Counted from the first letter of the stretch, positions 2,529 to 36,333 are shown. The stretch is DNA of 38,395 bases from Flavobacteriaceae bacterium (GCA_016744615.1 JADGEA010000012.1:1-38395), one strand, 5' to 3'. Made by a program: numbers and translations. Notes: generated by a model not told the origin, from the letters alone.

Positions 2529-2560
2529 AATTATTATAAAAACCATTTCAACTTATTATT

Positions 2561-4435: not shown

Positions 4436-4464
4436 TTTTAAGGTAGTTTTTAACAATCAGCTAA

Positions 4465-5031: not shown

Positions 5032-5074
5032 TTTGGAGTGTATTCATTGTTTATAATTATTTGATATCATTAAA

Positions 5075-5680: not shown

Positions 5681-5686
5681 CAAAAA

Positions 5687-6322: not shown

Positions 6323-6406
6323 TTATAAATTTATTTCTTAAATTTAATGCATTAATAGCCAACATTGTTGTTGGTATATTTGTTGTTTAACTAAACTTAT
6401 TTTAAA

Positions 6407-7093
6407 ATGAAAAAATTAGTAGCAGAATTTATTGGCACCTTTTGGTTGGTACTTGGTGGTTGTGGAAGTGCCGTTTTAGCAGCAGGATTTCCTGAATTAG
6501 GAATTGGCTTTGCAGGAGTTTCTTTAGCATTTGGTTTAACCGTTTTGACCATGGTATTTGCCGTAGGTCATATTTCTGGAGCCCATTTTAATCCCGCTGT
6601 TTCCATTGGTCTTTGGGCTGGAGGTCGCTTTGATAAAAAAGATTTATTACCATATATTGGTGCTCAGGTTTTAGGTGGAATAGCAGGTGCAACAGTTTTA
6701 TATTTTATAGCAACTGGGCAAGAAGGCTTTGAAATAGGAGGCTTTGCAGCCAATGGTTTTGGTGAGCATTCTCCAGGAGGTTATAGTATGTATGCAGCTT
6801 TGCTTACCGAGGTTGTTATGACTTTTATGTTTTTGATCGTTATTCTAGGTGCTACACATTCAAAAGCACCAAAAGGATTTGCTGGATTAGCAATAGGTTT
6901 AGCACTTACTCTTATTCATTTAATTAGTATTCCGGTAACTAATACTTCGGTTAACCCAGCGAGAAGTACTAGTCAGGCAATTTTTGCAGGAGGTTGGGCA
7001 ATGGATCAATTGTGGTTGTTTTGGGTTGCTCCGATTATTGGTGCAATTTTAGCTGGTGTTGTTTATAAATTTATGTTACCAGAAACAGAATAG
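6407..7093 (+). CDS. aqpZ: aquaporin Z (MIP family water channel)
   Basis: 228 aa with six TM segments. Both NPA boxes are present (HFNPAVS and VNPARS). The ar/R region is typical of AqpZ. Confidence 0.9.
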
Positions 7094-9799: not shown

Positions 9800-12025
9800 T
9801 TATTTTTTATTTTGACTATCACTTATAGATGGTGGTGGGTTTTTAATTCCCCACTCATTAGGAATGTTATTCATGTAAAGTTCTAAGATTCCCCCTTCAC
9901 TAATATCTGTATGTCTGAACCAAGACTGCAATAAAGACTTTCCATTTAAGATAGCTTTGGTAACATAGATGTTGTCTCCAGATAAGTTATGTACTCTAAT
10001 CTCAAATGTTTTACCATTATCCATCTTTATTTTGGTATTTCCAATAATAGGACTACCTATTAAATATACATCTTGACCGGCATTAGGAAAAATACCCATG
10101 GCTTGAAAAGCAAACCAGGAAGACATTGACCCTGAATCATCATTACCGGGTAAGCCACCTCTACCACCATGATAATATTCAGTAATTATTCTATGAATAA
10201 TCTTTGCTGACTTATCGTATCTTCCAGCCCATACATATAAATTAGGAGTTAAAAAACCAGGTTCATTTTCTATGATATAATATTTTCTTTTAAAAAACGT
10301 ATCTAATCTGTTTACAAAGGCTTTATTCCCTCCTGATAATTTTATTAACTCTTTTACATCTTGAGGGACATACAAAGAATATTCCCATGAAATACTTTCA
10401 TAGAAGAAATTATGCCAAGTTCCTCTTTTAAAAAGCGAAAAGTCATCGATCCATTCTCCTTGTTTATTTTTTGGACTAATAAATCCAGTTACACCATGAC
10501 TTTCTATAGGCTTCCATAAATTTCTCCAATTTGAAGCTCTACTTTTATATTTTTGATAATCATCTTCTTTTCCAAGTCCTTTTGCTACTTGGGCAATTCC
10601 CCAATCACAATTTGCATATTCTACAGTTCGTGTTCCTGCACGCTCATAAGAAGTTGATACATAACCTAACGTATTATAATCACTAAGTCCACCCCGACCT
10701 TCTTTTCGTTCATTGTTAGGAGCTATTTCTGCATTTTTTATCATCGCTTGATAAGCTATTTCATAATTAATACCTTTAATTCCTTTTACATAAGCATCTG
10801 CAATTACCAAATCACAATTGCTTCCTCCTTGTGTAAGACCATTATCATTTCCACTTCTTCCATCAGGCATATAACCTTCTTTTTCATAAATATTTAATAA
10901 TGAATTAATAATGTCTACCTGTGTTTTTGTATCAACTAATGTCAGCAAAGGATGTAATGTTCTAAAGGTGTCCCATATAGCGTAATAATCGTCATAATAT
11001 ACATCATCGGGATTCCAATTTTTAATTTCACCTGTTTTTTTAACGGGTTGCAAAAAAGAATGATATAAAGCTGTATAAAATATTTTTTTTATATCTTCTG
11101 ATGTTCCTGAAATTTCAATTTTACTTAGTTTTTTATTCCATTGAGTTTCAGCATTACTTTTTATTTTTTCAAAGTCCCAATACGGATTTTCCATTTCAAG
11201 ATTCATTTTTGCTTTTTTGATACTTAAAAATGATATCCCAACTTTTACTTTAATTACCTGATTCTTTTTTACATTGTAAGTAAAATAAGCTCCAGTTTTT
11301 TCACCGGTATCATGCTGTTTTTTTTGAAGTTCCTGTTTTTTACCAGACTTCCATGTTCCATAAGTATCTGAGGGTGTATCAAGTATCGCATAAAAATATA
11401 CAGTATAAGGTTTTCCTTTGTTCCATCCTCCTTTAATAGTTGTAGTACCTTGTACTTCGCTAGCGTTTAAAATATTTACAGAAGAACCTACTAATTGTTG
11501 ATCTTCTCCATACGCCCAACTTCGTGTTAAAAAACTTCCCAAATCAAGTAGCACGTGTGCATCACCTTCTTTTTGAAAAATATATTTATGAAAACCTGAA
11601 CTATGAGTTGTTGTTAATTCGACATTAATATTATAATCTTCTAAATCAACACTATAATACCCAGGAGATGCTTTCTCATTTTTTCTGGGAGAAGAATAAT
11701 CAATAATATTCAAATCTCCCATTGTCGTAGTTAATAGCACATTCCCATATTTTGGACCACCACCTGTTCCGCTAACATGGGTATGGCTAAAGCCCAAAAT
11801 ATCTCCTGTAGGATGATATCCTGAATTTGTATCTCTACGAAAACAATCTGGACCTAATTTCACCATTCCATAAGGTAAACTAACCCCGGGGAAAGTATTC
11901 CCTTTATTTTCTACCCCAATAAATGGATCAACATATTTTGTGTAATTTAAAATAACACCCTGTGAGTAAACATTGATGTTTATTAGACTTACTAAAGCTC
12001 CAATTAAGAAATATTTATATTTCAT
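9800..12025 (-). CDS. GH92 family alpha-mannosidase (alpha-1,2-mannosidase-like), secreted
   Basis: 741 aa with a signal peptide. GH92 N-terminal signature YVDPFIGV..GNTFPGVSLPYGMVKLGPD. C-terminal catalytic signature GGLPGNDDSGSMSSWFAFQAMGIFP (the GNDD.G.MS.W motif). Confidence 0.85.
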   Translation of the reverse strand: MKYKYFLIGALVSLININVYSQGVILNYTKYVDPFIGVENKGNTFPGVSLPYGMVKLGPDCFRRDTNSGYHPTGDILGFSHTHVSGTGGGPKYGNVLLTTTMGDLNIIDYSSPRKNEKASPGYYSVDLEDYNINVELTTTHSSGFHKYIFQKEGDAHVLLDLGSFLTRSWAYGEDQQLVGSSVNILNASEVQGTTTIKGGWNKGKPYTVYFYAILDTPSDTYGTWKSGKKQELQKKQHDTGEKTGAYFTYNVKKNQVIKVKVGISFLSIKKAKMNLEMENPYWDFEKIKSNAETQWNKKLSKIEISGTSEDIKKIFYTALYHSFLQPVKKTGEIKNWNPDDVYYDDYYAIWDTFRTLHPLLTLVDTKTQVDIINSLLNIYEKEGYMPDGRSGNDNGLTQGGSNCDLVIADAYVKGIKGINYEIAYQAMIKNAEIAPNNERKEGRGGLSDYNTLGYVSTSYERAGTRTVEYANCDWGIAQVAKGLGKEDDYQKYKSRASNWRNLWKPIESHGVTGFISPKNKQGEWIDDFSLFKRGTWHNFFYESISWEYSLYVPQDVKELIKLSGGNKAFVNRLDTFFKRKYYIIENEPGFLTPNLYVWAGRYDKSAKIIHRIITEYYHGGRGGLPGNDDSGSMSSWFAFQAMGIFPNAGQDVYLIGSPIIGNTKIKMDNGKTFEIRVHNLSGDNIYVTKAILNGKSLLQSWFRHTDISEGGILELYMNNIPNEWGIKNPPPSISDSQNKK

Positions 12026-12176
12026 TTATTATAATTTTTAATTTATTTATTACTATTCTTTCTAGTTTTCTGACAAAAGTAGAATTACTTCTTTTTACAA
12101 ATATGATTCACTTAAATCATTGAAACTAATAACCTAGCCTTTTAAACCTTATTTCGTTAAAAGTTAAATAACTAAT

Positions 12177-14291
12177 TCATAACGGATCTTTTAGCCCCCA
12201 TTTTTTATTTGGAATAGCCCCCATTTTAAAAATTAATTTTCCTCCCGATAAGATTTCATTATGCCTTATCCATGCTCTATTCAAAGGTTTACCATTTAGC
12301 ATTGCGGACTGAATATATATATTTATATCACTCACATCATCTGCTTGAATAACAAATGTGTTTTTTGTGTCAATATGTATCGTTACCTTTTTAAATAAAG
12401 GAGAACAAATTGCATAAAAAGGCTCGCCAGGACATACTGGATATATTCCCATAGAAGCAAAAATATACCATCCTGACATTGTTCCCGCATCATCGTCCAT
12501 ATCTGTAATATACCCTTCTGGTGTATCCAAAAACACCTCACGTATTATGGGTTCTTTAAATATTTTACTACCATATCGATTTATTGTTGGTTCTGTGAGA
12601 ATTTGATGAACTAGTTTTTGAGTTTTCCATGGAGAATCAGTATAAAGATAAAGAAAGGGAACTTGAATATCTGGTTGATTTCCAACATTAAAAAGATTGT
12701 TAGCAAAAAAATAATCCAATTGCTTTTCAAAAATATGTTTGCCTCCTAACTTTTCTTGTATTCCTCTTATATCAAAAGGAACAAACCAACGGTATTGCCA
12801 TAATGTGCCTTGATAAAGGCCAGCACCCTCCATAAGATCTGCATCTTTACCCATAATTTTAAATTTTTCGTCCCACACTTTTTCATATTCATATGCTTTG
12901 TCAATGTATGTTTTTGAATCTTCAACATAACCTAATTTTTCGGCTATTTTAGACATAGCCCATAAATCATAACTCGATTCCAAAATTTTATCAGGTGTTT
13001 CAAAAGAGAGGTTTTTAATTTCCTCTTGTAATTTTGGGTAAATATTTTCCAAAGAATAATTCAATAAATTTTTTTCTAAAGCATCTAATAAAACAGTTAT
13101 AGAATGTTCTGTTCGTACTGTTAAAAAAGGTTCTGTAGGTGTTGACCAATCTACTTTCCCTTGCTTATATAGCTCACCTAATGAAGTCATCATATCAATA
13201 TAATGTTCACGATATAATAAAGAGAAGAGCGGCAGCTTAGTTCTAAATGTATCCCAAATAGACCATCCATAAAAATGGTTTTTTTGTTTTGTTTTATAGA
13301 GTTCTCCATCACTTCCTCGATATTCTCCTCCCTGATCCTGAATGATGAATGGGGTTTGAACTACATGGTATAAATGTGTGTAAAATTTTCGCTTTAATAT
13401 ACTATCCGAGGTTTCTATATCTACTGTTTGTAATATTTTCTCCCAATCATTAACTGCATTTTTCCGTACAGACGTGAAAGACACACTTGATTGTACATTA
13501 AGATTATTTTTTGCATTTTCTACACTCACAACCGAAAGCGCACAACGAACTAGTACTTCCTGATTCTTTAGTGATGAAAATTTTATTTCAATTTTTGATT
13601 CATTACTTGTAATTTTCACCTCTTCTTTATCAATAGATAATGCAAAATAGATTGTATAATCTCCCTTGTTACAAATATTACGAGATGATATTTTTCCAAA
13701 AATGACACCTGACGTATCTATTTGATGTTCTTCATAATTATTCCCTACAAAACTAGATGCTAAATCAATAACTAAACCTACATGTTCTGATTTAGGAAAT
13801 GTATATCTGTGAAAAGCTACTTGTCGAGTAGCAGTTAATTCTGCTTGTACTTTGTTTTCCAACACTACCGAATAGTATCCAACCGAAGCAATTTCTGTTT
13901 TTTTATCTAATTTTAGTGATTTTGAAATCTTTTGATTGCCATCAGTTAATACAAAGGGTAATATTCGAATATTACCTCCTACGCCCTGACATCCAACACC
14001 TGAAAAACGAGTATTAGAGAATCCTAATATTGTTTGAGCAGAAAAATCATATCCAGAATAGCCCAAAGGATCTGAATCTGGTGCTGGTTTTACCATCCCA
14101 AAAGGGACAGCAGCAGCAGGATCTGTGTGTCCATGCTCACCTGATGTACACATAAATGGATCGATAAAATTATTTTTTCTATTGCTTTTCTGTAGGTTAA
14201 TTTGTGGACTACATGCCATAAATAATAACAAAATCACAGGTGAAATTAATTTCATTGTGGCACTTTTTTCATAATTAATTCCATGTATCAT
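12177..14291 (-). CDS. GH92 family alpha-mannosidase, lipoprotein
   Basis: 704 aa. IDPFMCTSGEHGHTDPAAAVPFGMVKPAPDS near the N-terminus and DMDDDAGTMSGWYIFASMGIYPVCPG near the C-terminus match GH92 signatures. The start is probably the internal Met at 14255 (MKLISPVILLLFMAC lipobox). Confidence 0.85.
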   Translation of the reverse strand: MIHGINYEKSATMKLISPVILLLFMACSPQINLQKSNRKNNFIDPFMCTSGEHGHTDPAAAVPFGMVKPAPDSDPLGYSGYDFSAQTILGFSNTRFSGVGCQGVGGNIRILPFVLTDGNQKISKSLKLDKKTEIASVGYYSVVLENKVQAELTATRQVAFHRYTFPKSEHVGLVIDLASSFVGNNYEEHQIDTSGVIFGKISSRNICNKGDYTIYFALSIDKEEVKITSNESKIEIKFSSLKNQEVLVRCALSVVSVENAKNNLNVQSSVSFTSVRKNAVNDWEKILQTVDIETSDSILKRKFYTHLYHVVQTPFIIQDQGGEYRGSDGELYKTKQKNHFYGWSIWDTFRTKLPLFSLLYREHYIDMMTSLGELYKQGKVDWSTPTEPFLTVRTEHSITVLLDALEKNLLNYSLENIYPKLQEEIKNLSFETPDKILESSYDLWAMSKIAEKLGYVEDSKTYIDKAYEYEKVWDEKFKIMGKDADLMEGAGLYQGTLWQYRWFVPFDIRGIQEKLGGKHIFEKQLDYFFANNLFNVGNQPDIQVPFLYLYTDSPWKTQKLVHQILTEPTINRYGSKIFKEPIIREVFLDTPEGYITDMDDDAGTMSGWYIFASMGIYPVCPGEPFYAICSPLFKKVTIHIDTKNTFVIQADDVSDINIYIQSAMLNGKPLNRAWIRHNEILSGGKLIFKMGAIPNKKWGLKDPL

Positions 14292-14306
14292 ATTTATAGA
14301 TATGGG

Positions 14307-15554
14307 CTATTTTTCACCGGGAGAATAATCATTTGAATTCACCGGATTAATCCGGACGGGATTATTTCCTGGCAGAGTAATATAATAATCAGTCCCGTAA
14401 GCATTTCCTGGCTTAAAATAATCAGTAGAAAGTACTTGGGCACCACTTTCGAAAGCAGCTACAGACCTTGTTCTGTCATTTACTTTCGCTTCATAAGTGT
14501 CAATGTCTGTTCTTGATCTTACTAAGTATCCATTTTTGACATGCTCCATTATCTCATTTTTTCTAATGATAGCATTGTCCAATAGAAGAAATGCAGAATA
14601 TGGCCTTCCAGGTTGTGATTGTAAGAACATTGCCCTTCCCTCTAAGGATGGTCTATCTTTTAAGTAAGGAGTTGGGTTTTCAATATTAGCACCAGCAGTT
14701 GAAGGTAGTAGCATAAAGAGGAACTTTCCTCTAGAATTTGTTAATAATGGCCAGTTTTGTGCTTTTACTGCTTCTTCCAATGTAGAATATTTACCTCGTA
14801 CTTGGTCAGGAGTGATGACCTTATCCTTTCCAAGTATTGAAAAAATTTTTTCGTCCAATGCATCAAATGCTTCCTCATCAAACGGTAAAACTTTTGTGGA
14901 GTTTGGGAATATTGGCATACCGCTATCTTTCGCTTCAATAATAATGAAGATAGGAATATGTTTAGAATTCTTATCTGACCAACTCTTTAAAGCTTTTAGA
15001 GCTAGTGAGAAAGTAGGGTAATGTGATCTAAAATCGATATCAGCGATGTGCATTACCTTAAATCCAGGTTCAGACAAATCAGTCGTGTCAAATGGTAATA
15101 AGTCTTTCTTACCTTGTTTTTTAAGAAATTCGTAAGCAGCAGGTTTTGTAAATCTCCCCCCTTTTGGATCATAGTACACATCGATTTCAAAAGAGCGTAA
15201 TCCTGCATTCAACTGCTCATTAAAATTTGGATGGTTATAAGACAGACTTTCCCTGAATTTTATTTTATTAGGGTGGTATTCATTAAAAAAAACTTTTTGT
15301 TCATCTGTCATCTGAGTAAAATATTTATCTATCATTCCTTCTAATACAGGGTCTAAATAATTCAGTACTGCTGTGTCGATGGGTTTTGAATAACTATTAT
15401 GCGTTCCTAAAACCTGAATTTGATTAATTTTGAGGTTAGATGGTAGGGTTAGGTCTGATGTTTTGATATCAATATCATTTTTTTTTAATTCAATATTGCA
15501 AGAAATGGTTAGTAAGTAAATCGTAATTAATGTAAAAGAAGTGAAGATTTTCAT
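14307..15554 (-). CDS. PI-PLC X-domain (Ca2+-dependent phosphoinositide phospholipase C-like) phosphodiesterase, lipoprotein
   Basis: 415 aa with a lipoprotein signal (LLTISC). The QVLGTHNSY motif matches the catalytic His box of the PLC X-domain TIM barrel. The size and the motif order fit the PLC-like phosphodiesterase superfamily. Confidence 0.55.
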   Translation of the reverse strand: MKIFTSFTLITIYLLTISCNIELKKNDIDIKTSDLTLPSNLKINQIQVLGTHNSYSKPIDTAVLNYLDPVLEGMIDKYFTQMTDEQKVFFNEYHPNKIKFRESLSYNHPNFNEQLNAGLRSFEIDVYYDPKGGRFTKPAAYEFLKKQGKKDLLPFDTTDLSEPGFKVMHIADIDFRSHYPTFSLALKALKSWSDKNSKHIPIFIIIEAKDSGMPIFPNSTKVLPFDEEAFDALDEKIFSILGKDKVITPDQVRGKYSTLEEAVKAQNWPLLTNSRGKFLFMLLPSTAGANIENPTPYLKDRPSLEGRAMFLQSQPGRPYSAFLLLDNAIIRKNEIMEHVKNGYLVRSRTDIDTYEAKVNDRTRSVAAFESGAQVLSTDYFKPGNAYGTDYYITLPGNNPVRINPVNSNDYSPGEK

Positions 15555-15795
15555 TGGGTTTGCCTATTTATTAAGTTATTTAAGAGTTTCTTTTAAATTG
15601 TAGATATATTTTCTATAGCATACAACTCCTTATACGCTCAAGTTAACATGATTAAATTCTGTCTCTAAAATCTGTGTTTTGTTTAGAAAGTTGAATATCA
15701 AGAATTGTACAGTCCTAAAAATATGAGTTTACTATCGTAAACGACTATTTTGAGTACAAACATAACGAAGATAGCAGAATTTCTAAACCAAATAT

Positions 15796-15840
15796 TAACT
15801 CAATACATCGAAGAATTTATTTCTTCGATGTATTGAGTTA
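15796..15840 (-). terminator. 20-bp perfect hairpin downstream of susD (attenuator or terminator within the PUL operon)
   Basis: taactcaatacatcgaagaa - tttat - ttcttcgatgtattgagtta is a perfect 20-bp inverted repeat with a 5-nt loop. It sits in the 340-bp susD-to-PLC intergenic region. No clean U-tract follows it. Confidence 0.4.
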
Positions 15841-15894
15841 ATTAGCTGTCAAAAGGTTTTATTAATAGCTAGTTATAACTATTATCTATAAATA

Positions 15895-17547
15895 TTAATA
15901 TCCTGGGTTTTGTGTGCTTAGTGAGTTCCCTCCTTCGTCAGTTCCTCCTCCGTCAATTTGACTTTGAGGAATCGGCATATATTCGTTTTTACCTGACACA
16001 AATGTTGCGCCACCTAAATAACCTCTTTCAATTTGTTCCTTTATGAGATATGTATTTATCACTTCAGCTGCAATACCCCATCGAACTAAATCGAAGAATC
16101 GTTGTCCTTCGTGCGCCATTTCTAAACGTCTTTCTGCACGTAAAGCTGTAACAGCTTCATCTTTTGAAGCAAAAGTATTATAAGTCTCTATCAGATAGTT
16201 TGCTGCATCAGCAGTGTTATCTAAATTTTGAATATAGTTTCCTGTTTTAGCTCTATCTCGTACCATATTGATATACACTCTACCACCCGGTAAATCACCA
16301 AGTTCAATTAAAGCTTCTGCTTTCCAAAGTAATACATCGGCATAACGGATAATTAGATAATTTGAAGATGTAACATAAGGCCATGATGCTAAATAATGAG
16401 GATCATTTGCTGACATTACCCTTTTTTTAGGTCCATAAGGTCCATAAGTTTCTAAATCTCTAGCCCAACTATCGCTATATTCAATTTCTAAATCCTTGTA
16501 TGGAATTCCTGGTCTTCCAACAGTTACATCCAATCTTGGATCTACAGTATTTGTATCTGTAATATCTACATTATCCAATAATGGCAATCCATTAACATCT
16601 GTTTTGAAAGAATTGACTAAATTTTGTGAAGCTCTTAAAAAACCATAACCTGGGTATCTTGGACCACCTGGAGGCATTAAACGATCACCTATAGAACCGT
16701 TATAATTTCTTGGAGAACCATCATTAATAGAATATTGAATAGAAAAAACAACTTCAGAACCATTATCATTATCAGGTAAAAATACTTCATTGAAATTTGT
16801 TTCTAAAACATATCCACCTTCATCAATAACAGCAGAAGCTGCAAGACTAGCTTCAGTCCATTTTTTTTGGTATAAATATGTTTTACTCAAATATGCTTTG
16901 GCAGCCCATTTTGTTGGGCGTCCAAAATCTGCTTGCGTACCAGGTAAAACATCAAAGGCTGCATTAAAATCATCTTCTATTTTAATCCATACTTGTTCAG
17001 GTGTTATTAATGTATTAGGCAAATAATTTCCATTTTCATCTATGTATGAAATTCGATTATACAATTTTTTTAATTCAAAATAAAAATGACCTCTTAAAAA
17101 ACGCATTTCTGCAATACGTTGTGTCTTTAAGGTTTCACTAATTTCGGTTGAATTATTTAAAACATTAAGAACTGTATTACTTCGTTTTACTCCTTCATAA
17201 AGTACTGCCCATTTTTGTTCAACGTCTCTTATTTGAGGGTCGGTTGCATAAATTTCCATTCGATGAATTTGATTTTGATCACCAGTTCCTCCACCGCCTT
17301 TATATGCGTCATCAGAAAGAACATCGCCAAAACTCCAATTAGATGCTGGTGAATTAAAGGCATTACTTGCTTCGTTTCCCTGACCATTTAAAATACTATA
17401 TGCAGAAATCACTAAAGATTCAATATTCTCTGGCGCACCAACCTGTTCTTCAGTAAGTTCTCCATAGGGTTCATTTTCTAAGAATTCATCACTACAAGAA
17501 GTAAAAAAAATTCCTATAATAAATACTATATATATTATATTTTTCAT
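15895..17547 (-). CDS. susD: SusD/RagB family nutrient-binding outer membrane lipoprotein
   Basis: 550 aa with a lipoprotein signal (FFTSCSDEF). TPR-like helical SusD architecture. Lies immediately downstream of susC with a 12-nt gap. Confidence 0.9.
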   Translation of the reverse strand: MKNIIYIVFIIGIFFTSCSDEFLENEPYGELTEEQVGAPENIESLVISAYSILNGQGNEASNAFNSPASNWSFGDVLSDDAYKGGGGTGDQNQIHRMEIYATDPQIRDVEQKWAVLYEGVKRSNTVLNVLNNSTEISETLKTQRIAEMRFLRGHFYFELKKLYNRISYIDENGNYLPNTLITPEQVWIKIEDDFNAAFDVLPGTQADFGRPTKWAAKAYLSKTYLYQKKWTEASLAASAVIDEGGYVLETNFNEVFLPDNDNGSEVVFSIQYSINDGSPRNYNGSIGDRLMPPGGPRYPGYGFLRASQNLVNSFKTDVNGLPLLDNVDITDTNTVDPRLDVTVGRPGIPYKDLEIEYSDSWARDLETYGPYGPKKRVMSANDPHYLASWPYVTSSNYLIIRYADVLLWKAEALIELGDLPGGRVYINMVRDRAKTGNYIQNLDNTADAANYLIETYNTFASKDEAVTALRAERRLEMAHEGQRFFDLVRWGIAAEVINTYLIKEQIERGYLGGATFVSGKNEYMPIPQSQIDGGGTDEGGNSLSTQNPGY

Positions 17548-17559
17548 AATTGATTTTTG

Positions 17560-20500
17560 TTAAAAATTAATATTAATCCCAAAGGTAAATGTCTTTGAAC
17601 TAGGGTATATGCCTCTATCTACACCTATATCTAAATTTCGATCATCAGAGGTGTAACTCTGTAAACCGATTTCAGGATCTAAACCATCATAATTAGTAAT
17701 AGTAAACAAATTATAAGCTTCAAAATACACTCTAAATCGAGATGCTTTTATTTTTTGGGCTATACTTTCAGGAAATGAATATCCTACTTGAAATGTTTTT
17801 AATCGAAAATAAGAACCGTCTTGAACATAATAAGATGAAGGACGAATATTATTATTTAAATCATTTAATGAAACTCTTGCTAAATCAGTATTTGTATCTT
17901 GAGGTGTCCATGCATTTAAAATTCGTCCATGTTTATTATAATTTGCTAAATTGAAAAAATCGTTATAATAACGAGATAAATCATAGATGTCATTACCTTG
18001 TGAACCTTGAAAAAATAATGTAAAGTCAAAAGCTTTATAAACTGCTGACAAATTGATTCCATAGGTAATATCAGCATGTGGTGATCCTATAAAGGTTCTA
18101 TCTTCAGCATCAATTACACCATCTCCGTTTAAATCTTTAAAAATAAAATCTCCTGCTTGTGCATTGGGTTGAATACTGGATGTTGCATCTGCATCAGTTT
18201 GAAATATTCCATCAACTACATGACCATAAAAGGAAGCTATCGGCTGTCCTACTGCTGTTCTAGAAGTTGATTGATCAAAATTAATACTATGCAAAACTGC
18301 GGGGTCTGTTTCAATAAAATTAATTCCTTCACCTAAAGAAAGTAATTTATTATCGATTATCGCAAAGTTTAAACCTACGTTAAAGTTGAAATCTTTAGTA
18401 CGATTGCTTTGATAATTTATATCAAACTCAAATCCTTTATTTTCCATTTCACCTACATTATTCCATTGCCCTCTATTGGTAATACCCACATCTGGCGGAA
18501 GTGTTTGAAATAATAATAAATCTTCTGTATTTTTAATAAAATAATCTGCTGTAATATTTAATGAATTATTCAAAAATCCAAATTCTAATCCTATATTTGA
18601 TTGTGTTGTAGTTTCCCATTTCAAATCTGGATTTGCAATTCTTGATAAAGTATATCCTGTTTGTGTACTTGTTTGGGATCCGTTAATTGCATAATTGGAA
18701 TAATAAGGGTTACTACTAAATCCTGAAGCAGTTTGATAAGCAGGGATATCTTGATTTCCTGTTTTTCCCCAACCTATCCTTAATTTTAAATTAGATAATG
18801 TACCTTCTTTGTTAAAGAAATCTTCTTCTGAAATTCTCCACCCTGCAGATAGTGCAGGAAAAGTACCCCAACGATTGTCTAACAATTTAGAAGTTCCATC
18901 TCTTCTTAAAGTAGCTGAAAATAAATATTTATTGTCATAATTATAATTTATTTTCCCAAAATAAGAAAACAAGGTAAATTCTATTTTATCACCTGTGTTG
19001 GTTTGTGTACCTTGATCTCCTGCATTTAACACTCTAATATTAAGTTCATTTGTCGGTAAATCTTGTATTGAAGCAGTTGTATATTCAAATACATTCGAAA
19101 TGCTTTCTAAACCTACTAATACATTCAAATTGTGTTTATCATTGAATGTTTTTGTATAGTTTAATGTATTAGACCAAACCCAATCAAATTTTATCTCATT
19201 TACAATAGATAAATCATTTATTGCTCTATGAGCATTAGGTTCTACATAAGTAGGGTTAAAATTTTCACTTTTAAAAGTAGTGTAATTAACACCAAAATTT
19301 GTTTTGAATTTTAAGTCTTCAATTAATTGAATTTCAGCAAATAAGTTACCAAAAATCTTTACATTATTTCTCTCATTATCTTTGTTGCGGTATAAGTTTC
19401 CTAAAGGGTTTTGCACATCAGATGGTGGATACCCTGAAAACTCTCCATTTATATCATATACTGGTGCGATACTTGGCATTCTGAATGCATCGTAAACAAC
19501 ATTTCCTAACAAAGAATTTGTACTTGTGCCCACAGAATTCGAAAAGGCTACAGTTAAATTTTCTCCAACAGTAACTTTACCATCAAATAATTTGTAGTCT
19601 GAATTGAGGCGAGCTGTAATTCGATTAAAATTTGTATATTTTAATATACCTTCCTGATCAAAATAATTTAAAGAGAATAAAGAATGTGATTTCTCATTTC
19701 CTTGAGAGAAATTTAAATTATAAGATTGAATAAGTGCAGGGTTAAAAATTTCTTCAACCCATTTGGTATTAGCTGAAGGAATGGTGTTTTCTGCATCTAA
19801 AAAAGCAGGTATTACGGGAGAAGCTCCATTTCCATAAATAGCATGTGATGGAGTAATACCATCATTGTCATATGCTTGCCAATATACATCACCATATTCT
19901 TGAGCATCTAGCATGCTTGGTAAATTGGAAACGTTTTGACTACCTAAATACATATCAAAAGAAAGTTTAGGTTCACCTGCTTTACCTTTTTTAGTTGTAA
20001 TAATAACAACACCATTTGCTGCTCTTGAACCATAAATACTTGAGGATGATGCATCTTTTAATACTTGTAATGATTCAATATCATTTGGGTTAATCAAACT
20101 TAACCCGGTAGTTGTAGGAACACCATCAATCACATACAGAGGATCATTATTTCTAATCGTACTAAAACCTCTAATTCTAAGAGTAGTTACATCTCCAGGT
20201 GAACCTGAACTCATAACATTAACACCAGCAACTCTTCCTTGTAACATACTATTTACATCGGCTACTGGCTGGGTTACAACTTCATCAAGATTAACAATAG
20301 CAACAGCTCCTGTAAGGTCACTCTTTCGCTCTGAAGTATATCCAGTAACAATTACTTCATCTAAAGAAGATGTCTCTGATAGTAATTTAATGTTAATCAC
20401 ACTTTGATCATTAATCTCAATTTCTTGAGTTTCAAAACCCATATACGATACCATTAGTATTGTAGCATTCTCTGAAACAGTTATGCTATATTTTCCATCA

Positions 20501-21006
20501 AAATTTGTGGTTGTACCATTATCAGTTCCCTTTACAAGGATAGCAGCACCAGGTAAAGGAAACCCATCATTATCAGTAACTGTTCCTGTAATTTCTTTTT
20601 GTTGTTGCTTCTCTTTTATGATAAGTAATGGAATTATTTTTTTACTATTATCTGATTTTAAAATGATTTGTTTATCTAGTACTTCATAAGATACAGGCAT
20701 AGTTAAGAACAAATTATCTAAAATATTTTTAACTTTTTCTTTTTTTACCTTAACTGAAATAATTTTATTAACATCAATATCTTTTCTATTAAAAAGAAAT
20801 TTGAATTCTGTTAAAAATTCTATTTCATTTAATACGGTTTCTAAAGTAACATTCTCAAAATCTAAAGTAATCTTTGTCTTTTGAGCATAGTTATTAGCTT
20901 GAACATTAAATAGTGCAATGAACAGTAAAAATGTTGTTATTTTCATTTTTAAGTCAAATTTTAGAGTGAATAGAAGTATACTCCTACTCTTAGTAAGTTT
21001 TTTCAT
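17560..21006 (-). CDS. susC: SusC/RagA family TonB-dependent outer membrane transporter with N-terminal STN (anti-sigma-coupled) extension
   Basis: 1148 aa. After the signal peptide comes an STN-type extension domain, then a carboxypeptidase-regulatory-like domain (TGTVTDNDGFPLPGAAILVKG), then the TonB-box/plug region (LDEVIVTGY), then the barrel, with a C-terminal Phe. The true start may be the internal Met at 20946 (MKITTFLLFIALFNVQA signal). Confidence 0.9.
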   Translation of the reverse strand: MKKLTKSRSILLFTLKFDLKMKITTFLLFIALFNVQANNYAQKTKITLDFENVTLETVLNEIEFLTEFKFLFNRKDIDVNKIISVKVKKEKVKNILDNLFLTMPVSYEVLDKQIILKSDNSKKIIPLLIIKEKQQQKEITGTVTDNDGFPLPGAAILVKGTDNGTTTNFDGKYSITVSENATILMVSYMGFETQEIEINDQSVINIKLLSETSSLDEVIVTGYTSERKSDLTGAVAIVNLDEVVTQPVADVNSMLQGRVAGVNVMSSGSPGDVTTLRIRGFSTIRNNDPLYVIDGVPTTTGLSLINPNDIESLQVLKDASSSSIYGSRAANGVVIITTKKGKAGEPKLSFDMYLGSQNVSNLPSMLDAQEYGDVYWQAYDNDGITPSHAIYGNGASPVIPAFLDAENTIPSANTKWVEEIFNPALIQSYNLNFSQGNEKSHSLFSLNYFDQEGILKYTNFNRITARLNSDYKLFDGKVTVGENLTVAFSNSVGTSTNSLLGNVVYDAFRMPSIAPVYDINGEFSGYPPSDVQNPLGNLYRNKDNERNNVKIFGNLFAEIQLIEDLKFKTNFGVNYTTFKSENFNPTYVEPNAHRAINDLSIVNEIKFDWVWSNTLNYTKTFNDKHNLNVLVGLESISNVFEYTTASIQDLPTNELNIRVLNAGDQGTQTNTGDKIEFTLFSYFGKINYNYDNKYLFSATLRRDGTSKLLDNRWGTFPALSAGWRISEEDFFNKEGTLSNLKLRIGWGKTGNQDIPAYQTASGFSSNPYYSNYAINGSQTSTQTGYTLSRIANPDLKWETTTQSNIGLEFGFLNNSLNITADYFIKNTEDLLLFQTLPPDVGITNRGQWNNVGEMENKGFEFDINYQSNRTKDFNFNVGLNFAIIDNKLLSLGEGINFIETDPAVLHSINFDQSTSRTAVGQPIASFYGHVVDGIFQTDADATSSIQPNAQAGDFIFKDLNGDGVIDAEDRTFIGSPHADITYGINLSAVYKAFDFTLFFQGSQGNDIYDLSRYYNDFFNLANYNKHGRILNAWTPQDTNTDLARVSLNDLNNNIRPSSYYVQDGSYFRLKTFQVGYSFPESIAQKIKASRFRVYFEAYNLFTITNYDGLDPEIGLQSYTSDDRNLDIGVDRGIYPSSKTFTFGININF

Positions 21007-21143
21007 ACTTTTGCGATTATTTTAAGTGATTAATAAATTTACTCACTCTATTATTATTGGAAGGTGTTGAGCCATCTTCCAATTTTTTTTATAGAGGGTA
21101 GTTCGTTTTCTTTTAGGATTTTATGTCATAGTTTAAATTGGTT

Positions 21144-22331
21144 TTAGTTAATAATTATTTTATTATTCTCAATAGTATACATAATTTCAAAACTTTTATT
21201 AAAAGATTTCAAAACTTGTTCAATGGTCTCTATATTAAAAGTAGCATTGTAATATTGTTCACCAAGTTTCTTGTTATTATTTATGATGGATACATTATAA
21301 TGCCTTTCTAATTTTTTAACAATATTTTTGAATTGTAAATTTTTAAAAATAAGTTTACCATTTTTCCAGCTTGTGTATAAGCTAGTATCTACTAAGTTAA
21401 TTGAAATTTCTTTATTTGACTTATTCCAATTAGCCATATGACCAGATTCTAAAAGAGAAGTTTCATCATCATTATAGACTTCATTCTTGCCAAACAAACT
21501 TACAGATCCTTCAACTAACACTGTACTAATGGTGGGATCTTCTGGATAAGAAGAAACATTAAATTCTGTTCCAAGAACTCTAATACACATTTCATTCGTA
21601 TTTACAATGAATGGATGATTTGTGTCTTTGGTTACATCAAAATAAGCTTCTCCACTTAATAAATATACTTGTCTTTTTTTACCGTTGATAAATTTCACAG
21701 GGTACTTGAATGATGTGCCTGCATTCAAAAAAACTTCAGTACCATCTGAAAGAACGATTTGAAACTTCTTCCCATAAGGAACAGTTAATTCATTGTAAGC
21801 TAACTTTCCCTTTTTATTATTAAACAAAGAAGGTGAAGGTGTTTGTGAATTATTTTTATAATTTAATTCGCTTCCACTTTGAACTCCAACAATTCTTCCT
21901 TTTTTATCAAGAATTCTTTTTTCTCCAGTAGTTTTTATTACTTCAATATTGCCATTATCTAATTTAATTGTAATAGCTTCATCGCTTATTTTTAATTTTT
22001 GAATTGTATCATCTCCATTTTGAAAGAAAAATGTGATTCCAATAATACCTATGAATATTGCTGCATATTTAAATACAGATTGAATACGTATTCTATAAAG
22101 TACATTGCTGTCTTCTTTAATTTTTTTAAGAAGTAACTTTTTTGTTTTATTTGTATCGAATTGACTCATATGATAGTCAATCGCATAATTTACTTTTACA
22201 TATTTACAAAATACTTGTTCATTCTCAGGTTCTTTTATCCAAATAGATAATTCATCTAATTCAGCAGCAGTTATTGAATTAGTAACGTATTTTATAATTA
22301 ATTTTTCTATTTCTGGTAATTTCATCAACAT
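21144..22331 (-). CDS. FecR family anti-sigma factor / transmembrane sensor
   Basis: 395 aa. N-terminal cytoplasmic sigma-binding region, a single TM segment (AAIFIGIIGITFFF), and a periplasmic FecR domain plus C-terminal domain. Lies upstream of the STN-bearing susC. Confidence 0.85.
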   Translation of the reverse strand: MLMKLPEIEKLIIKYVTNSITAAELDELSIWIKEPENEQVFCKYVKVNYAIDYHMSQFDTNKTKKLLLKKIKEDSNVLYRIRIQSVFKYAAIFIGIIGITFFFQNGDDTIQKLKISDEAITIKLDNGNIEVIKTTGEKRILDKKGRIVGVQSGSELNYKNNSQTPSPSLFNNKKGKLAYNELTVPYGKKFQIVLSDGTEVFLNAGTSFKYPVKFINGKKRQVYLLSGEAYFDVTKDTNHPFIVNTNEMCIRVLGTEFNVSSYPEDPTISTVLVEGSVSLFGKNEVYNDDETSLLESGHMANWNKSNKEISINLVDTSLYTSWKNGKLIFKNLQFKNIVKKLERHYNVSIINNNKKLGEQYYNATFNIETIEQVLKSFNKSFEIMYTIENNKIIIN

Positions 22332-22437
22332 ATACTTTTATTTATTACGAAACTATTTTAACTAACCCTTAACTTTTTTAACTTTTTTTTTGATATTTAC
22401 ATAATAATTTTGATTTTTTTACTAACAACTTCAATTT

Positions 22438-23013
22438 ATGAAGAAAAATTTTAATAATAATAAGCTAATTAGTCATTTAAAAAATGGTGATAAAAAGGCT
22501 TATTCATTTTTGGTAAATTATTTCAATCATAAATTATGCATTTATGCCAATAGCTTAGTGAACGATCATGCTATGGCTGAAGATATTGTTCAAAATGTTT
22601 TTATTAAAGTTTGGGAAAGGCGAAAGAGGTTAAATGAAAAGTATTCTTTAAATAGCTTTTTGTATAAACTGGTTTACAATGAGTTTATTGACCAATATCG
22701 AAAGAAACAATCAGTTATGTTATTAGAGAAAAAATATATTCAAACCTTGAATAAAATAACGAATGATAAAAATGAAGAGGATACTCAAAAGATGATTAAG
22801 CTGGTTATGAAATTAATTGAAAATTTACCCCCAAAATGCAAAAAAATATTTTTATTGAGTAAAAAAGAAGGATTGACAAATATTGAAATTGCTGAATATT
22901 TAAACACTTCTGTTAAATCTGTAGAAGGGCATATTACTAGAGCATATATCATAATTAGAAAATCTGTTGATGGAAGATTTAAGGAGATACTTTTTTTAAT
23001 TTTCAATCATTAA
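22438..23013 (+). CDS. ECF (sigma-70 family, group 4) RNA polymerase sigma factor
   Basis: 191 aa. Region 2 (DIVQNVFIKVWERRKRL..YNEFIDQYRK) and a region 4 HTH (GLTNIEIAEYLNTSVKSVEGHITRA). It is divergent from fecR. Confidence 0.85.
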   Translation: MKKNFNNNKLISHLKNGDKKAYSFLVNYFNHKLCIYANSLVNDHAMAEDIVQNVFIKVWERRKRLNEKYSLNSFLYKLVYNEFIDQYRKKQSVMLLEKKYIQTLNKITNDKNEEDTQKMIKLVMKLIENLPPKCKKIFLLSKKEGLTNIEIAEYLNTSVKSVEGHITRAYIIIRKSVDGRFKEILFLIFNH

Positions 23014-33888: not shown

Positions 33889-33891
33889 CAT

Positions 33892-36316: not shown

Positions 36317-36333
36317 CGTAAAAATAGATTGAA

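What the first reader, a model, noticed from the sequence alone, without database searches (positions are those of the whole stretch)
9800..23013. Sigma/anti-sigma-controlled SusC/SusD PUL pairing two GH92 alpha-mannosidases with a phospholipase-C-like phosphodiesterase
The minus-strand block fecR - susC(STN) - susD - PI-PLC-like lipoprotein - GH92 - GH92 has a divergent ECF sigma. It is a compact trans-envelope-signalling PUL. Its only degradative enzymes are alpha-mannosidases and a PLC-type phosphodiesterase. High-mannose N-glycan and yeast-mannan PULs usually carry GH18, GH76, GH125, GH38 or GH99 partners instead. This combination suggests a substrate in which mannose is joined through a phosphodiester. 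Candidates are mannosyl-phosphate side chains of fungal phosphomannan, GPI-anchor glycans, or fungal or plant (mannosyl)inositol-phosphoceramides (MIPC/GIPC). I am not aware of a characterized PUL for these last substrates. The GH20 hexosaminidase, S9 peptidase and O-acetyltransferase 6-10 kb upstream could supply complementary activities for glycopeptide or GlcN-containing cores. Whether that is so cannot be decided from sequence.
Basis: partly seen in the sequence, partly recalled or inferred. Interest (0 to 1): 0.7.

Follow-up and report, generated by a model that had tools for sequence, protein, structure and literature searches.

The report
Phosphodiester-mannoside uptake locus, Pus-like
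A marine Bacteroidota gene cluster joins a sigma/anti-sigma-controlled outer-membrane importer to a phospholipase-C-like enzyme, an ordinary mannosidase and an unusual mannosidase of the type that cuts mannose off a phosphate, so it probably harvests mannose-phosphate-linked glycans or lipid head groups rather than ordinary mannan.

Summary
HMM searches confirm, at the stated coordinates, ECF sigma, FecR, SusC with an STN domain, SusD, a PF16670 PI-PLC-like lipoprotein and two GH92 proteins. The flanking genes are unrelated.

1. GH92b (12177-14291) has Gln494 where GH92 enzymes carry the general-acid Glu. CcMan5 has the same change, and it is the only GH92 known to hydrolyse Man-α1-phosphate-6-Man. 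GH92a keeps the Glu.
2. The SusC/SusD pair belongs to a very conserved family (SusD at least 59% identical across four orders). In other genomes the pair is followed, in varying combinations, by the same PLC, the same GH92 pair, an unknown 420-aa DUF218 protein, a PF04185 phosphoesterase, or NAGPA (a phosphodiester glycosidase) plus GDPD. In some genomes nothing follows it.
3. A September 2026 preprint shows that F. johnsoniae uses ECF/anti-sigma + PusCD + PF16670 PI-PLC to grow on phosphatidylinositol.

The locus is therefore best read as a Pus-like phosphoglycan utilisation locus specialised for α-mannosyl-phosphodiester substrates. Candidates are phosphomannan and mannosylated inositol-phospholipid head groups. 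The exact substrate remains inferred. The upstream GH20, S9 peptidase and acetyltransferase show no conserved link. I rate it a new variant of a known kind, of moderate to high interest.

The parts
22438..23013 (+). ECF-type sigma factor, divergent from the anti-sigma gene
   Evidence: TIGR02985 E 7.9e-39; PF04542 and PF08281.
21144..22331 (-). FecR-type anti-sigma factor with a single membrane-spanning segment
   Evidence: PF04773 E 6e-20 and PF16344 E 3e-16. The hydrophobic segment FKYAAIFIGIIGITFFF is visible in the translation.
17560..21006 (-). SusC-type TonB-dependent transporter with an N-terminal STN signalling domain
   Evidence: TIGR04056 E 1.3e-276; STN at residues 69-117 (34.6 bits); Plug and barrel domains. 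Best solved relative is BT1763, E 1e-193. It is 50-77% identical to the SusC of loci L008, L019, L081 and L086-L095.
15895..17547 (-). SusD-type surface lipoprotein of a very conserved family
   Evidence: PF07980 and PF14322. Lipobox FFTSC followed by SDEF. The 120 nearest clusters are 59-100% identical. It is 46% identical to BT1762, but the levan-stacking W85 and the C298-C299 pair are replaced. R289 and R305 are the majority residue in at least 95% of 119 family members.
15795..15841 (-). 20-bp perfect hairpin with a T-rich tail just after the susD stop; probably a transcription attenuator
   Evidence: Terminator-like scan. The sequence was read directly. The hairpin is retained in L081.
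15555..15794 (-). Conserved leader upstream of the PLC gene, containing TAtgTTTG, a Bacteroidetes-type -7 promoter motif
   Evidence: The spacer is 84% identical to the equivalent spacer of L081, with long invariant runs. No Rfam match. Folding z-score is -1.0.
14307..15554 (-). PI-PLC-like (PF16670) Ca2+-type phosphodiesterase, a lipoprotein
   Evidence: PF16670 E 1.5e-105 over the full length. The AlphaFold2 model (pLDDT 78.5) is closest to the Ca2+-dependent PI-PLCs 3H4W and 5FYO/P/R (Foldseek E 2e-12, TM 0.61-0.68 normalised to the target). The motifs GTHNSY, EIDVYYD and IEAKD are conserved in 17 homologues (H52, N53, D125, E207, K209 and D210 invariant; E123 in at least 90%) and align with the corresponding motifs of 3H4W and 5FYO. 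Lipobox LTISC.
12177..14291 (-). GH92b: a CcMan5-like GH92 lacking the general-acid Glu (Gln494); predicted α-mannosyl-phosphate 'uncapping' glycosidase; lipoprotein if translation starts at Met13
   Evidence: PF07971 and PF17678. Best solved relative is CcMan5 (2XSG), E 1.3e-73. The motif LYQGTLWQY is identical to that of CcMan5, where BT3130 has FTEGNAWQY with Glu535. The Asp pair MDDDAGTMS is kept. Gln is present in the orthologues of L081, L090 and L091 and in the GH92 of L019.
9800..12025 (-). GH92a: canonical exo-α-mannosidase with a type I signal peptide
   Evidence: PF07971 E 3e-149. Best solved relative is BT3130 (6F8Z), E 3e-115. It keeps Glu543 and the GNDDSGSMS base motif. N-terminus is ...NVYSQ.

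Best explanation
This is a Pus-like 'phosphoglycan' utilisation locus. It couples a TonB-dependent SusC/SusD importer under trans-envelope ECF sigma/anti-sigma control to three exported enzymes that together dismantle a glycoconjugate in which α-mannose is attached through, or next to, a phosphodiester.

Proposed order of events:
1. The PF16670 lipoprotein cleaves the phosphodiester that holds the polar head group or oligomer to its lipid or polymer.
2. SusD/SusC bind and import the phosphorylated fragment. Occupancy is signalled through the STN domain to FecR, which releases the sigma factor.
3. In the periplasm GH92a removes ordinary α-linked mannose.
4. GH92b has no general acid and so is suited to a phosphate leaving group. 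It removes α-mannose from mannose-1-phosphate diesters and exposes a phosphomonoester.
5. Housekeeping periplasmic phosphatases encoded elsewhere release phosphate, and the mannose is catabolised.

The likely pay-off is phosphorus as well as carbon. Candidate substrates are mannosyl-phosphorylated fungal mannan or phosphomannan, and mannosylated inositol-phospholipid head groups (the MIPC/phospholipomannan/GIPC type).

Shown: the domain identities, the catalytic-motif states, and gene-neighbourhood conservation. Inferred: the enzyme specificities, the order of steps, the localisation of the PLC, and the substrate.
For: - GH92b has Gln494 at the position of the GH92 general acid. This position is BT3130 Glu535, which is chain residue E519. 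CcMan5 has the identical motif, and PMC5930347 describes CcMan5 as targeting Man-α-1,6-PO4-Man.
- All five GH92b-type genes linked to this SusCD family have Gln. GH92a keeps the Glu.
- Gln or Ala variants at this position cripple BT3990 on mannobiose (PMC10167667).
- The PLC-like protein has an intact motif set and a Ca2+-type PI-PLC fold.
- Loci with SusD 57-85% identical to the window's carry varied partners. L081 has PLC + GH92b + GH92a. L090 and L091 have GH92b + GH92a + DUF218, and L091 also has a PF04185 phosphoesterase. L019 has DUF218 + GH92(Gln) + PLC. L008 and L095 have PLC + DUF218. L093 has NAGPA phosphodiester glycosidase + GDPD.
- L020 also has PLC + DUF218, but behind a more distant SusCD: only a 31%-identical fragment of its SusD aligns.
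- L015 has DUF218-PLC-NAGPA.
- The SusD has lost the levan-specific W85 and Cys-Cys of BT1762. Two Arg residues in the corresponding loop are conserved across the family.
- Experimental precedent: in F. johnsoniae Pus1, an ECF/anti-sigma pair, PusCD1 and a PF16670 PI-PLC support growth on phosphatidylinositol and GroPI. PusCD1 binds inositol-1-phosphate.
- None of the classical mannan or N-glycan enzymes is present among the 29 window ORFs scanned.
Against: - No enzyme activity has been measured for any protein of this family clade.
- The PLC is only 14-18% identical to solved PI-PLCs and carries about 100 extra residues.
- Most PF16670 homologues, for example in Chryseobacterium, have no SusCD or GH92 nearby.
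- Several close SusCD relatives stand alone with no enzymes: L086, L087, L088 and L092.
- Glu and Gln both occur at the acid position among the nearest GH92b relatives. Of the representatives with a recognisable motif, 60 have Glu and 27 have Gln, and the closest representative (56% identical) has Glu. The meaning of Gln rests on one characterised enzyme.
- A hairpin and a probable internal promoter lie between susD and the PLC gene, so co-regulation is not proven.
- No phosphatase is encoded in the locus.
- Orthology to PusCD1 could not be tested. The tryptophan position that matches BT1762 W85 is a proline here.
Confidence: 0.55

Rival explanations
1. This is an ordinary α-mannan or high-mannose N-glycan PUL. 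Both GH92s are plain exo-mannosidases, and the PLC-like gene is a passenger or serves an unrelated membrane function.
For: - Both proteins are full-length GH92s.
- GH92a's nearest solved relative, BT3130, is active on yeast mannan.
- Acid-position variants of BT3990 keep residual activity.
- Glu and Gln interchange within the clade.
- L090 and L091 have the GH92 pair without PF16670.
Against: - There are no endo-acting or complementary enzymes (GH18, GH76, GH99, GH125, GH38, GH130) among the 29 of 32 window ORFs of at least 100 aa that were scanned.
- The Gln at the acid position is shared with the one phosphodiester-specific GH92.
- The PLC lies directly downstream of a SusCD gene pair in at least six loci from different families: the window, L081, L008, L019, L095 and, with a more distant SusCD, L020.
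- Orthologous SusCDs sit next to NAGPA, GDPD and PF04185 rather than CAZymes.
Confidence: 0.15
2. This is a Pus1-type phosphorus-scavenging system for plain phosphatidylinositol or glycerophosphoinositol. SusCD imports GroPI or inositol phosphate and the PLC acts in the periplasm. The two GH92 genes are a separately transcribed neighbouring unit with another role.
For: - The architecture matches F. johnsoniae Pus1: ECF/anti-sigma + SusCD-like + PF16670.
- L008, L095 and L020 have SusCD + PLC without any GH92.
- There is a hairpin and a -7 promoter motif after susD.
Against: - The GH92 genes follow the PLC with short gaps: 15 nt before GH92b (51 nt if GH92b starts at Met13) and 151 nt before GH92a, all on the same strand.
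- The GH92b + GH92a pair sits directly after the orthologous SusD in L090 and L091 with no PLC. The pair is therefore tied to the transporter itself.
- No calcineurin-like Fjoh_4173 counterpart is present in the window.
- The SusD lacks a Trp at the BT1762 W85 position.
Confidence: 0.15
3. The locus targets a bacterial envelope polymer rather than a eukaryotic one. Examples are actinobacterial phosphatidylinositol mannosides or lipomannan, or poly(glycosyl-1-phosphate) teichoic-type polymers containing mannose-1-phosphate. This is a sub-case of the best explanation with a different source organism.
For: - The sister locus L093 carries NAGPA + GDPD. This combination would suit GlcNAc-1-phosphate- and glycerol-phosphate-containing wall polymers.
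- L015 joins the PLC with NAGPA.
- CcMan5 itself comes from an actinobacterium.
Against: There is no direct evidence. No peptidoglycan- or arabinan-active enzymes are present in the locus.
Confidence: 0.1

Closest known systems
F. johnsoniae Pus1 locus (ECF sigma/anti-sigma, PusC1/PusD1, PI-PLC1 Fjoh_4172, calcineurin-like Fjoh_4173); bioRxiv 10.64898/2026.09.03.749221 and PMC8115612
   Same: Both have an ECF sigma and anti-sigma, a SusC/SusD-like pair and a PF16670 PI-PLC-family enzyme in one cluster. Both appear to import an organophosphate rather than a neutral glycan. The authors themselves raise the idea of importing an inositol phosphoglycan.
   Different: The window adds two GH92 genes, one without the general acid, and lacks the calcineurin-like putative GIPC-PLC. 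Its PLC is a lipoprotein, whereas Fjoh_4172 is predicted to be a Sec/SPI periplasmic protein. Its SusD has Pro where the BT1762-type stacking Trp lies. The lineage is marine. Orthology of the SusCD pair to PusCD1 could not be tested.
CcMan5 / CcGH92_5 of Cellulosimicrobium cellulans (PDB 2XSG, 4AQ0)
   Same: It is the best solved match of GH92b (E 1.3e-73). Both share the LYQGTLWQY motif with Gln at the general-acid position, a DAGTMS-type base motif, and a segment absent from BT3130.
   Different: CcMan5 is one domain of a large secreted actinobacterial protein. GH92b is a 704-aa lipoprotein inside a SusCD locus. The activity of GH92b is untested.
B. thetaiotaomicron yeast-mannan PULs and high-mannose N-glycan PUL
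   Same: They have GH92 exo-mannosidases with SusCD. The N-glycan PUL also uses ECF/anti-sigma control. Yeast mannan carries mannose-1-phosphate side chains.
   Different: Those loci contain GH76, GH125, GH99, GH38, GH130 or GH18 and an EEP-family phosphatase. The window locus has none of these.
BT1762/BT1763 levan SusCD (PDB 5T3R, 6Z8I, 6ZAZ)
   Same: These are the closest solved transporter structures. SusD is 46% identical and SusC matches at E 1e-193. Five of the eight levan-contacting SusD residues are conserved or conservatively replaced (four identical, D41 to Glu).
   Different: W85 and the vicinal C298-C299, which are essential for levan binding in vitro, are replaced. There is no GH32 in the window. 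Regulation is by ECF/anti-sigma rather than a hybrid two-component system.
Ca2+-dependent PI-PLCs SaPLC1 (3H4W/3H4X) and Pseudomonas sp. 62186 PI-PLC (5FYO/P/R)
   Same: Same Pfam family and TIM-barrel fold. The His-Asn, Glu-x-Asp and Glu-x-Lys motifs are conserved.
   Different: Identity is only 14-18%. The window protein is about 100 residues longer and lipid-anchored. Its substrate is unknown.

Membership tests
SusC/SusD locus with trans-envelope ECF sigma/anti-sigma signalling | Adjacent SusC (TIGR04056) and SusD (PF07980/PF14322) genes on one strand | tested here: met
SusC/SusD locus with trans-envelope ECF sigma/anti-sigma signalling | N-terminal STN domain on SusC, a FecR anti-sigma with a membrane segment, and an ECF sigma next to it | tested here: met
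   STN scores 34.6 bits against a cut-off of 28.4. FecR and FecR_C are present. TIGR02985 E 8e-39. The membrane segment is seen.
GH92 α-mannosidase | GH92 N-terminal and catalytic domains over the full length | tested here: met
   Met for both proteins.
GH92 α-mannosidase | General-acid Glu (BT3990 Glu533 / BT3130 Glu535) | tested here: not met
   GH92a meets it with Glu543. GH92b does not: it has Gln494, as does CcMan5. GH92b is therefore filed as a CcMan5-like GH92, not as a standard mannosidase.
GH92 α-mannosidase | Catalytic base Asp pair (the DD of the NDDxGxMS motif) | tested here: met
   GNDDSGSMS in GH92a and MDDDAGTMS in GH92b.
CcMan5-type mannose-1-phosphate 'uncapping' GH92 | Hydrolysis of Man-α1-PO4-6-Man | not testable with these tools
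   Only the sequence signature is shown: best PDB hit, Gln at the acid position, and a shared insertion.
PF16670 Ca2+-dependent PI-PLC | Family HMM match and PLC-like TIM-barrel fold | tested here: met
   E 1.5e-105. Foldseek top hits are 3H4W and 5FYO/P/R with probability 1.0.
PF16670 Ca2+-dependent PI-PLC | Catalytic His and Ca2+-ligand motifs (H-N, E-x-D, E-x-K) | tested here: met
   H52, N53, D125, E207 and K209 are invariant and E123 is present in at least 90% of 17 homologues. They align with HNCY of 5FYO and with LELD and IEMKD of 3H4W. The assignment of roles rests on general knowledge of PI-PLCs.
PF16670 Ca2+-dependent PI-PLC | Cleavage of phosphatidylinositol | not testable with these tools
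Identity to characterised enzymes is 14-18%.
Pus1 (PusCD1) phospho-inositol-lipid utilisation locus | ECF/anti-sigma + SusCD-like pair + PF16670 enzyme in one cluster | tested here: met
   compared.
Pus1 (PusCD1) phospho-inositol-lipid utilisation locus | PusD1 ligand residues (D84, W85, D87, Y307, R312, R321, T323), and orthology to Fjoh_4168/4169 | tested here: inconclusive
   The PusD1 sequence was not obtainable. A motif search of all fetched loci and the window found nothing. The window SusD has Pro104 at the BT1762 W85 position, but has the family-conserved R289 and R305.
Pus1 (PusCD1) phospho-inositol-lipid utilisation locus | Calcineurin-like phosphoesterase partner (Fjoh_4173 type) | tested here: not met
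   No Metallophos-type domain was found in any of the 29 window ORFs scanned.
Pus1 (PusCD1) phospho-inositol-lipid utilisation locus | Induction by phosphate limitation, and growth on PtdIns or GroPI | not testable with these tools
   This requires culture or transcriptomics.
Yeast-mannan / high-mannose N-glycan PUL | Endo-acting or complementary enzymes (GH76, GH99, GH125, GH38, GH130, GH18) | tested here: not met
   None was found among the 29 of 32 window ORFs of at least 100 aa that were scanned.
Levan-type SusCD (BT1762/63) | W85 stacking platform and the C298-C299 disulfide of SusD; a GH32 in the locus | tested here: not met
   W85 is replaced by Pro104, and C298/C299 by a gap and Tyr301. 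No GH32 is present.

The most novel reading that the evidence does not exclude
The window's SusCD lineage marks a widespread, so far undescribed class of 'phosphoglycan utilisation loci' in marine and sediment Bacteroidota. In these loci one conserved importer is combined with interchangeable enzymes for glycosyl-phosphodiesters. The enzymes are acid-less GH92 (removing mannose-1-phosphate caps), NAGPA-type phosphodiester glycosidases (removing GlcNAc-1-phosphate caps), PLC-type, GDPD-type and PF04185-type phosphodiesterases, and an unknown exported 420-aa DUF218 enzyme. Together they would mine phosphorus from sugar-phosphate polymers and glyco-inositol-phospholipids of fungi, protists or bacteria. 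The window would be the mannosyl-phosphate version.
Probability: 0.35. Interest if true: 0.8.

Novelty: new variant of a known kind. Interest (0 to 1): 0.62.

Why it matters
SusCD loci have been read almost entirely as carbohydrate (carbon) systems. The first organophosphorus SusCD (PusCD) was reported only in a September 2026 preprint, and only for plain phosphatidylinositol in a soil bacterium.

This locus and its relatives suggest the principle extends to glycosylated phosphodiesters and to marine Bacteroidota. They point to a natural role for the rare CcMan5-type GH92. That enzyme has so far been known only as a biotechnological tool for exposing mannose-6-phosphate.

The locus gives concrete, cheap tests with three recombinant proteins and one SusD. 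It also nominates an unknown DUF218 protein as a missing enzyme of the pathway. If confirmed, it would identify a route by which phosphomannans or glyco-inositol-phospholipids are recycled. These are large but poorly tracked organic phosphorus pools.

Tried and rejected
- Orthology to PusCD1. The Fjoh_4168/4169 sequences could not be retrieved. PusCD1 is not in the PDB copy. A regular-expression search for the published PusD1 residue pattern in all loci and the window found nothing.
- Literature on the SaPLC1 and Pseudomonas PI-PLC mechanism. The papers are not held. The 1,6-cyclic-phosphate argument, which would make 2-O-glycosylated inositol acceptable, is therefore left as unverified memory and is not used as evidence.
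- A riboswitch or sRNA in the conserved susD-PLC spacer. There was no Rfam hit and no significant fold.
- Metagenome scan with GH92b. It returned only two loci, which were informative but too few for statistics. The last contig look-up (P0328) failed.
- GH20, S9 peptidase and acetyltransferase as part of the system. Rejected because they are on the other strand with five unrelated genes between, and no homologue was detected next to related loci.
- The EEP-family gene at 31444-32493 as the missing phosphatase. It lies 8 kb away beyond modABC and a PBP1 gene and is not conserved near relatives.
- A fructan reading, prompted by the BT1762/63 similarity and a GH32 gene 6 kb from L087. Rejected because the levan-specific residues are lost and GH32 is absent elsewhere.

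Full report
**1. Observation.**
- On the minus strand: GH92a (9800-12025), GH92b (12177-14291), a PF16670 'PI-PLC-C1' protein (14307-15554; E 1.5e-105, full-length), SusD (15895-17547), SusC (17560-21006; TIGR04056 E 1e-276, with an STN domain at residues 69-117) and FecR (21144-22331).
- On the plus strand, divergent from these: an ECF sigma factor (22438-23013).
- The flanks are an SPFH/flotillin gene and modABC, so the cluster is compact.
- The window is a whole 38.4-kb contig of an uncultured, low-GC (about 31%) Bacteroidota. Its closest named relatives are marine (Arenibacter, Maribacter, Cellulophaga).
- No GH18, GH38, GH76, GH99, GH125 or GH130 was found in the 29 of the window's 32 ORFs of at least 100 aa that were scanned; the other three lie inside longer genes on the opposite strand.
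- An independent contig, L081, has the same order with SusD 85%, SusC 77%, PLC 78%, GH92b 82% and GH92a 86% identical. It also has an inserted cytoplasmic CN-hydrolase gene.

**2. The PLC-like protein.**
- It is a lipoprotein with lipobox LTISC.
- By sequence it matches the Ca2+-dependent PI-PLCs SaPLC1 (3H4W) and the Pseudomonas enzyme (5FYO) only weakly.
- An AlphaFold2 model (pLDDT 78.5) finds exactly these structures first (Foldseek E about 1e-12, TM 0.61-0.68 relative to the target). Listeria PI-PLC comes next.
- The motifs GTHNSY, EIDVYYD and IEAKD are conserved in 17 diverse homologues (H52, N53, D125, E207 and K209 invariant; E123 in at least 90%). They align with HNCY of 5FYO and with LELD and IEMKD of 3H4W.
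- The protein is therefore not catalytically dead by sequence criteria.
- It is about 100 residues longer than the solved enzymes and only 14-18% identical to them. Its substrate is not established.
- The family is widespread in Bacteroidota and also in Proteobacteria. Most copies, for example in Chryseobacterium, have no SusCD or GH92 nearby.

**3. The two GH92s differ.**
- GH92a is closest to BT3130 (6F8Z, E 3e-115). That enzyme is strongly active on yeast mannan, with an uncertain linkage preference (PMC5930347). GH92a keeps the general acid (Glu543) and the base motif GNDDSGSMS.
- GH92b is closest to CcMan5 (2XSG, E 1.3e-73). PMC5930347 describes CcMan5 as the GH92 that targets Man-α-1,6-PO4-Man phosphodiester linkages.
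- In the residue-level alignments, BT3130 reads FTEGNAWQY. Its Glu is chain residue 519. This equals Glu535, the assigned general acid, given the 16-residue offset that also places Asp637 correctly. Both CcMan5 and GH92b read LYQGTLWQY at this site.
- GH92b thus has Gln494 at the acid position. It also shares with CcMan5 the DAGTMS base motif (MDDDAGTMS in GH92b, MDNDAGTMS in CcMan5) and a segment that BT3130 lacks.
- The GH92b orthologues of L081, L090 and L091 and the single GH92 of L019 all have Gln.
- Gln and Ala variants of the equivalent Glu533 of BT3990 are severely impaired on mannobiose (PMC10167667).
- A phosphate leaving group needs no protonation. This point is chemical reasoning plus my unverified recollection of the CcMan5 paper.
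- Caveat: among the 150 nearest 50%-identity cluster representatives, 60 have Glu, 27 have Gln and 63 do not match the motif pattern. The closest representative (56% identical) has Glu. The position is evolutionarily labile, and the inference rests on one characterised enzyme.

**4. The transporter family and its neighbourhoods.**
- The SusD has an unusually conserved family. The 120 nearest clusters are 59-100% identical and come from Flavobacteriia, Cytophagia, Bacteroidia (Prolixibacteraceae) and Saprospiria-like MAGs.
- The closest solved structures are the levan importer BT1762/BT1763 (SusD E 1e-101 and 46% identity; SusC E 1e-193).
- I mapped the published levan contacts (PMC7782687). 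D41, N43, D67, R368 and Y395 are kept or conservatively replaced. The stacking W85 becomes Pro104, and the vicinal C298-C299 becomes a gap and Tyr301.
- The loop around that position carries two Arg residues, R289 and R305, that are the majority residue in at least 95% of 119 family members.
- Gene neighbourhoods show the cassette ECF-FecR-SusC-SusD followed by one of:
  - PLC + GH92b + GH92a (window, L081)
  - GH92b + GH92a + a 420-aa exported DUF218 protein (L090, L091). L091 also has a PF04185 PLC/acid-phosphatase-family lipoprotein just upstream, and downstream MFS transporters and a NagB/PIG-L fusion.
  - DUF218 + GH92(Gln) + PLC (L019)
  - PLC + DUF218 (L008, L095). L020 has the same pair, but a LysR-type regulator gene sits upstream in place of the ECF/FecR pair and only a 31%-identical fragment of its SusD aligns.
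  - NAGPA phosphodiester glycosidase (PF09992, E 1e-34) + GDPD (L093)
  - a DUF1080-type protein (L094)
  - nothing (L086, L087, L088, L092)
- In L015 the order is DUF218-PLC-NAGPA, beside a divergent SusC.
- The recurring partners are therefore phosphodiester-cleaving enzymes and two different 'uncapping' glycosidases for sugar-1-phosphate diesters. They are not the usual CAZyme sets.

**5. Literature.**
- A preprint dated September 2026 (bioRxiv 10.64898/2026.09.03.749221) shows that F. johnsoniae needs Pus1 and Pus2 to grow on phosphatidylinositol or GroPI as its phosphorus source.
- Pus1 consists of an ECF/anti-sigma pair, PusC1D1, the PF16670 PI-PLC1 (Fjoh_4172) and a calcineurin-like putative GIPC-PLC.
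- PusCD1 was imaged with inositol-1-phosphate bound to W85, D84, D87, Y307, R312, R321 and T323 of PusD1.
- The authors speculate that inositol phosphoglycans from GIPC could also be imported. They note phylogenetically distinct PusCD-like pairs next to other phosphatases, including glpQ-like genes.
- They do not mention mannosidases. The 2020 paper (PMC8115612) showed that the same cluster is induced by phosphate depletion.
- I could not obtain the PusC1/D1 sequences. Whether the window's pair belongs to the PusCD1 clade or is one of the 'distinct' lineages is unresolved. The missing Trp argues for a distinct lineage.

**6. Regulation and topology.**
- The STN domain, FecR and ECF sigma give the standard trans-envelope signalling circuit.
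- Directly after the susD stop there is a 20-bp perfect hairpin with a T-rich tail (15841-15795). Downstream lies a Bacteroidetes-type -7 motif (TAtgTTTG) in a 340-bp spacer that is 84% identical to that of L081.
- The enzyme genes are therefore probably expressed by attenuated read-through, by an internal promoter, or by both. 'Sigma/anti-sigma-controlled' is shown only for susC/susD by architecture and is inferred for the enzymes. In L008 and L019 the equivalent genes are tightly packed.
- SusD has an acidic post-Cys segment (CSDEF) typical of surface export. The PLC (CNIELKKND) is ambiguous. GH92b is a lipoprotein without acidic residues after the Cys if translation starts at Met13. GH92a has a type I signal peptide.
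- I therefore place the GH92s in the periplasm. The PLC could be on either face of the outer membrane.

**7. Best explanation and rivals.**
- The most coherent reading (confidence about 0.55) is a Pus-like phosphoglycan locus for α-mannosyl-phosphodiester-containing substrates. The PLC detaches the head group or oligomer, and SusCD imports the phosphorylated fragment. GH92a trims ordinary α-mannose, and GH92b removes mannose from phosphate. Phosphatases encoded elsewhere finish the job.
- Candidate substrates are mannosyl-phosphorylated fungal mannan or phosphomannan, and mannosylated inositol-phosphoceramides or phospholipomannan-type lipids. Sequence cannot choose between them.
- Three rivals remain:
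  - a plain mannan or N-glycan PUL with a passenger PLC (0.15);
  - a plain PtdIns/GroPI Pus1-type system with unrelated GH92 neighbours (0.15);
  - a bacterial-polymer target, which is a sub-case of the main model (0.1).
- The main weaknesses are the complete lack of biochemistry for this clade, the stand-alone SusCD cassettes, the Glu/Gln lability, and the absence of a dedicated phosphatase.

**8. Verdict.**
Its core idea, mannose plus a phosphodiester, is strengthened by the acid-less GH92b, by the phosphodiesterase-rich neighbourhoods of the SusCD family, and by the Pus1 precedent.
- The proposed role of the upstream GH20, S9 peptidase and acetyltransferase is not supported. The claim that no related system is characterised is now out of date for inositol lipids.
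- I rate it a new variant of a known kind: a Pus-type SusCD locus extended by a CcMan5-type GH92. Interest is about 0.6. It yields direct, inexpensive tests and hints at a broader class of phosphoglycan utilisation loci.

Noticed in passing
[not shown]
   Followed up: partly
L093 11718-14381; L015 5409-6422: NAGPA-family 'phosphodiester glycosidase' genes (PF09992) occur in two related contexts. One follows a SusD 77% identical to the window's, together with a GDPD/DUF4996 protein. The other follows a PF16670 PLC. This suggests sister loci for GlcNAc-1-phosphate- or glycerol-phosphate-linked polymers.
   Followed up: partly
L091 1341-2441 and 15821-21375: The locus with the GH92b/GH92a/DUF218 set has a PF04185 (PLC/acid phosphatase family) lipoprotein just upstream of the sigma gene. 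Downstream it has a 249-aa lipoprotein of unknown family, two MFS transporters and a NagB/PIG-L fusion. A CN-hydrolase fragment at L091 1-219 is 88% identical to the CN-hydrolase inserted in L081.
   Followed up: partly
window 15555-15894 (minus strand): The susD-PLC spacer contains a 20-bp perfect hairpin and a TAnnTTTG motif. It is 84% identical to the spacer of L081, about as conserved as the flanking proteins, and includes long invariant runs in the 190 nt before the PLC start. There is no Rfam match and no significant fold.
   Followed up: partly
L086, L087, L088, L092: Close relatives of the window's ECF-FecR-SusC-SusD cassette (SusD 61-81% identical) stand alone with no adjacent enzyme genes. 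What they import is unknown. L089 has a TonB-dependent receptor plus a β-propeller phytase 4 kb away, and L087 has a GH32 6 kb away.
   Followed up: no
window 31444-32493 (-): An endonuclease/exonuclease/phosphatase-family protein (PF03372) lies 8 kb from the locus. This family supplies the mannose-6-phosphatases of B. thetaiotaomicron mannan PULs (recalled from memory). No conserved linkage was seen here.
   Followed up: partly
window 645-7093: This stretch holds an S9 peptidase, a GH20 hexosaminidase, a maltose-acetyltransferase-like hexapeptide protein, a PagL-like outer-membrane protein and an aquaporin, all on the plus strand. No link to the locus was found.
   Followed up: yes
window 32998-38300: This stretch holds a XerC/D-type tyrosine recombinase, then the core cluster tRNA-Thr/Tyr/Gly/Thr, tuf, tRNA-Trp, nusG, rplK and rplA. 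The contig is therefore chromosomal and not a mobile element.
   Followed up: yes
L006 10001-12426; L054 and L060 10001-12326: Tandem duplicated PF16670 PLC genes occur in Polaribacter sargassicola and in Pseudoalteromonas species.
   Followed up: no
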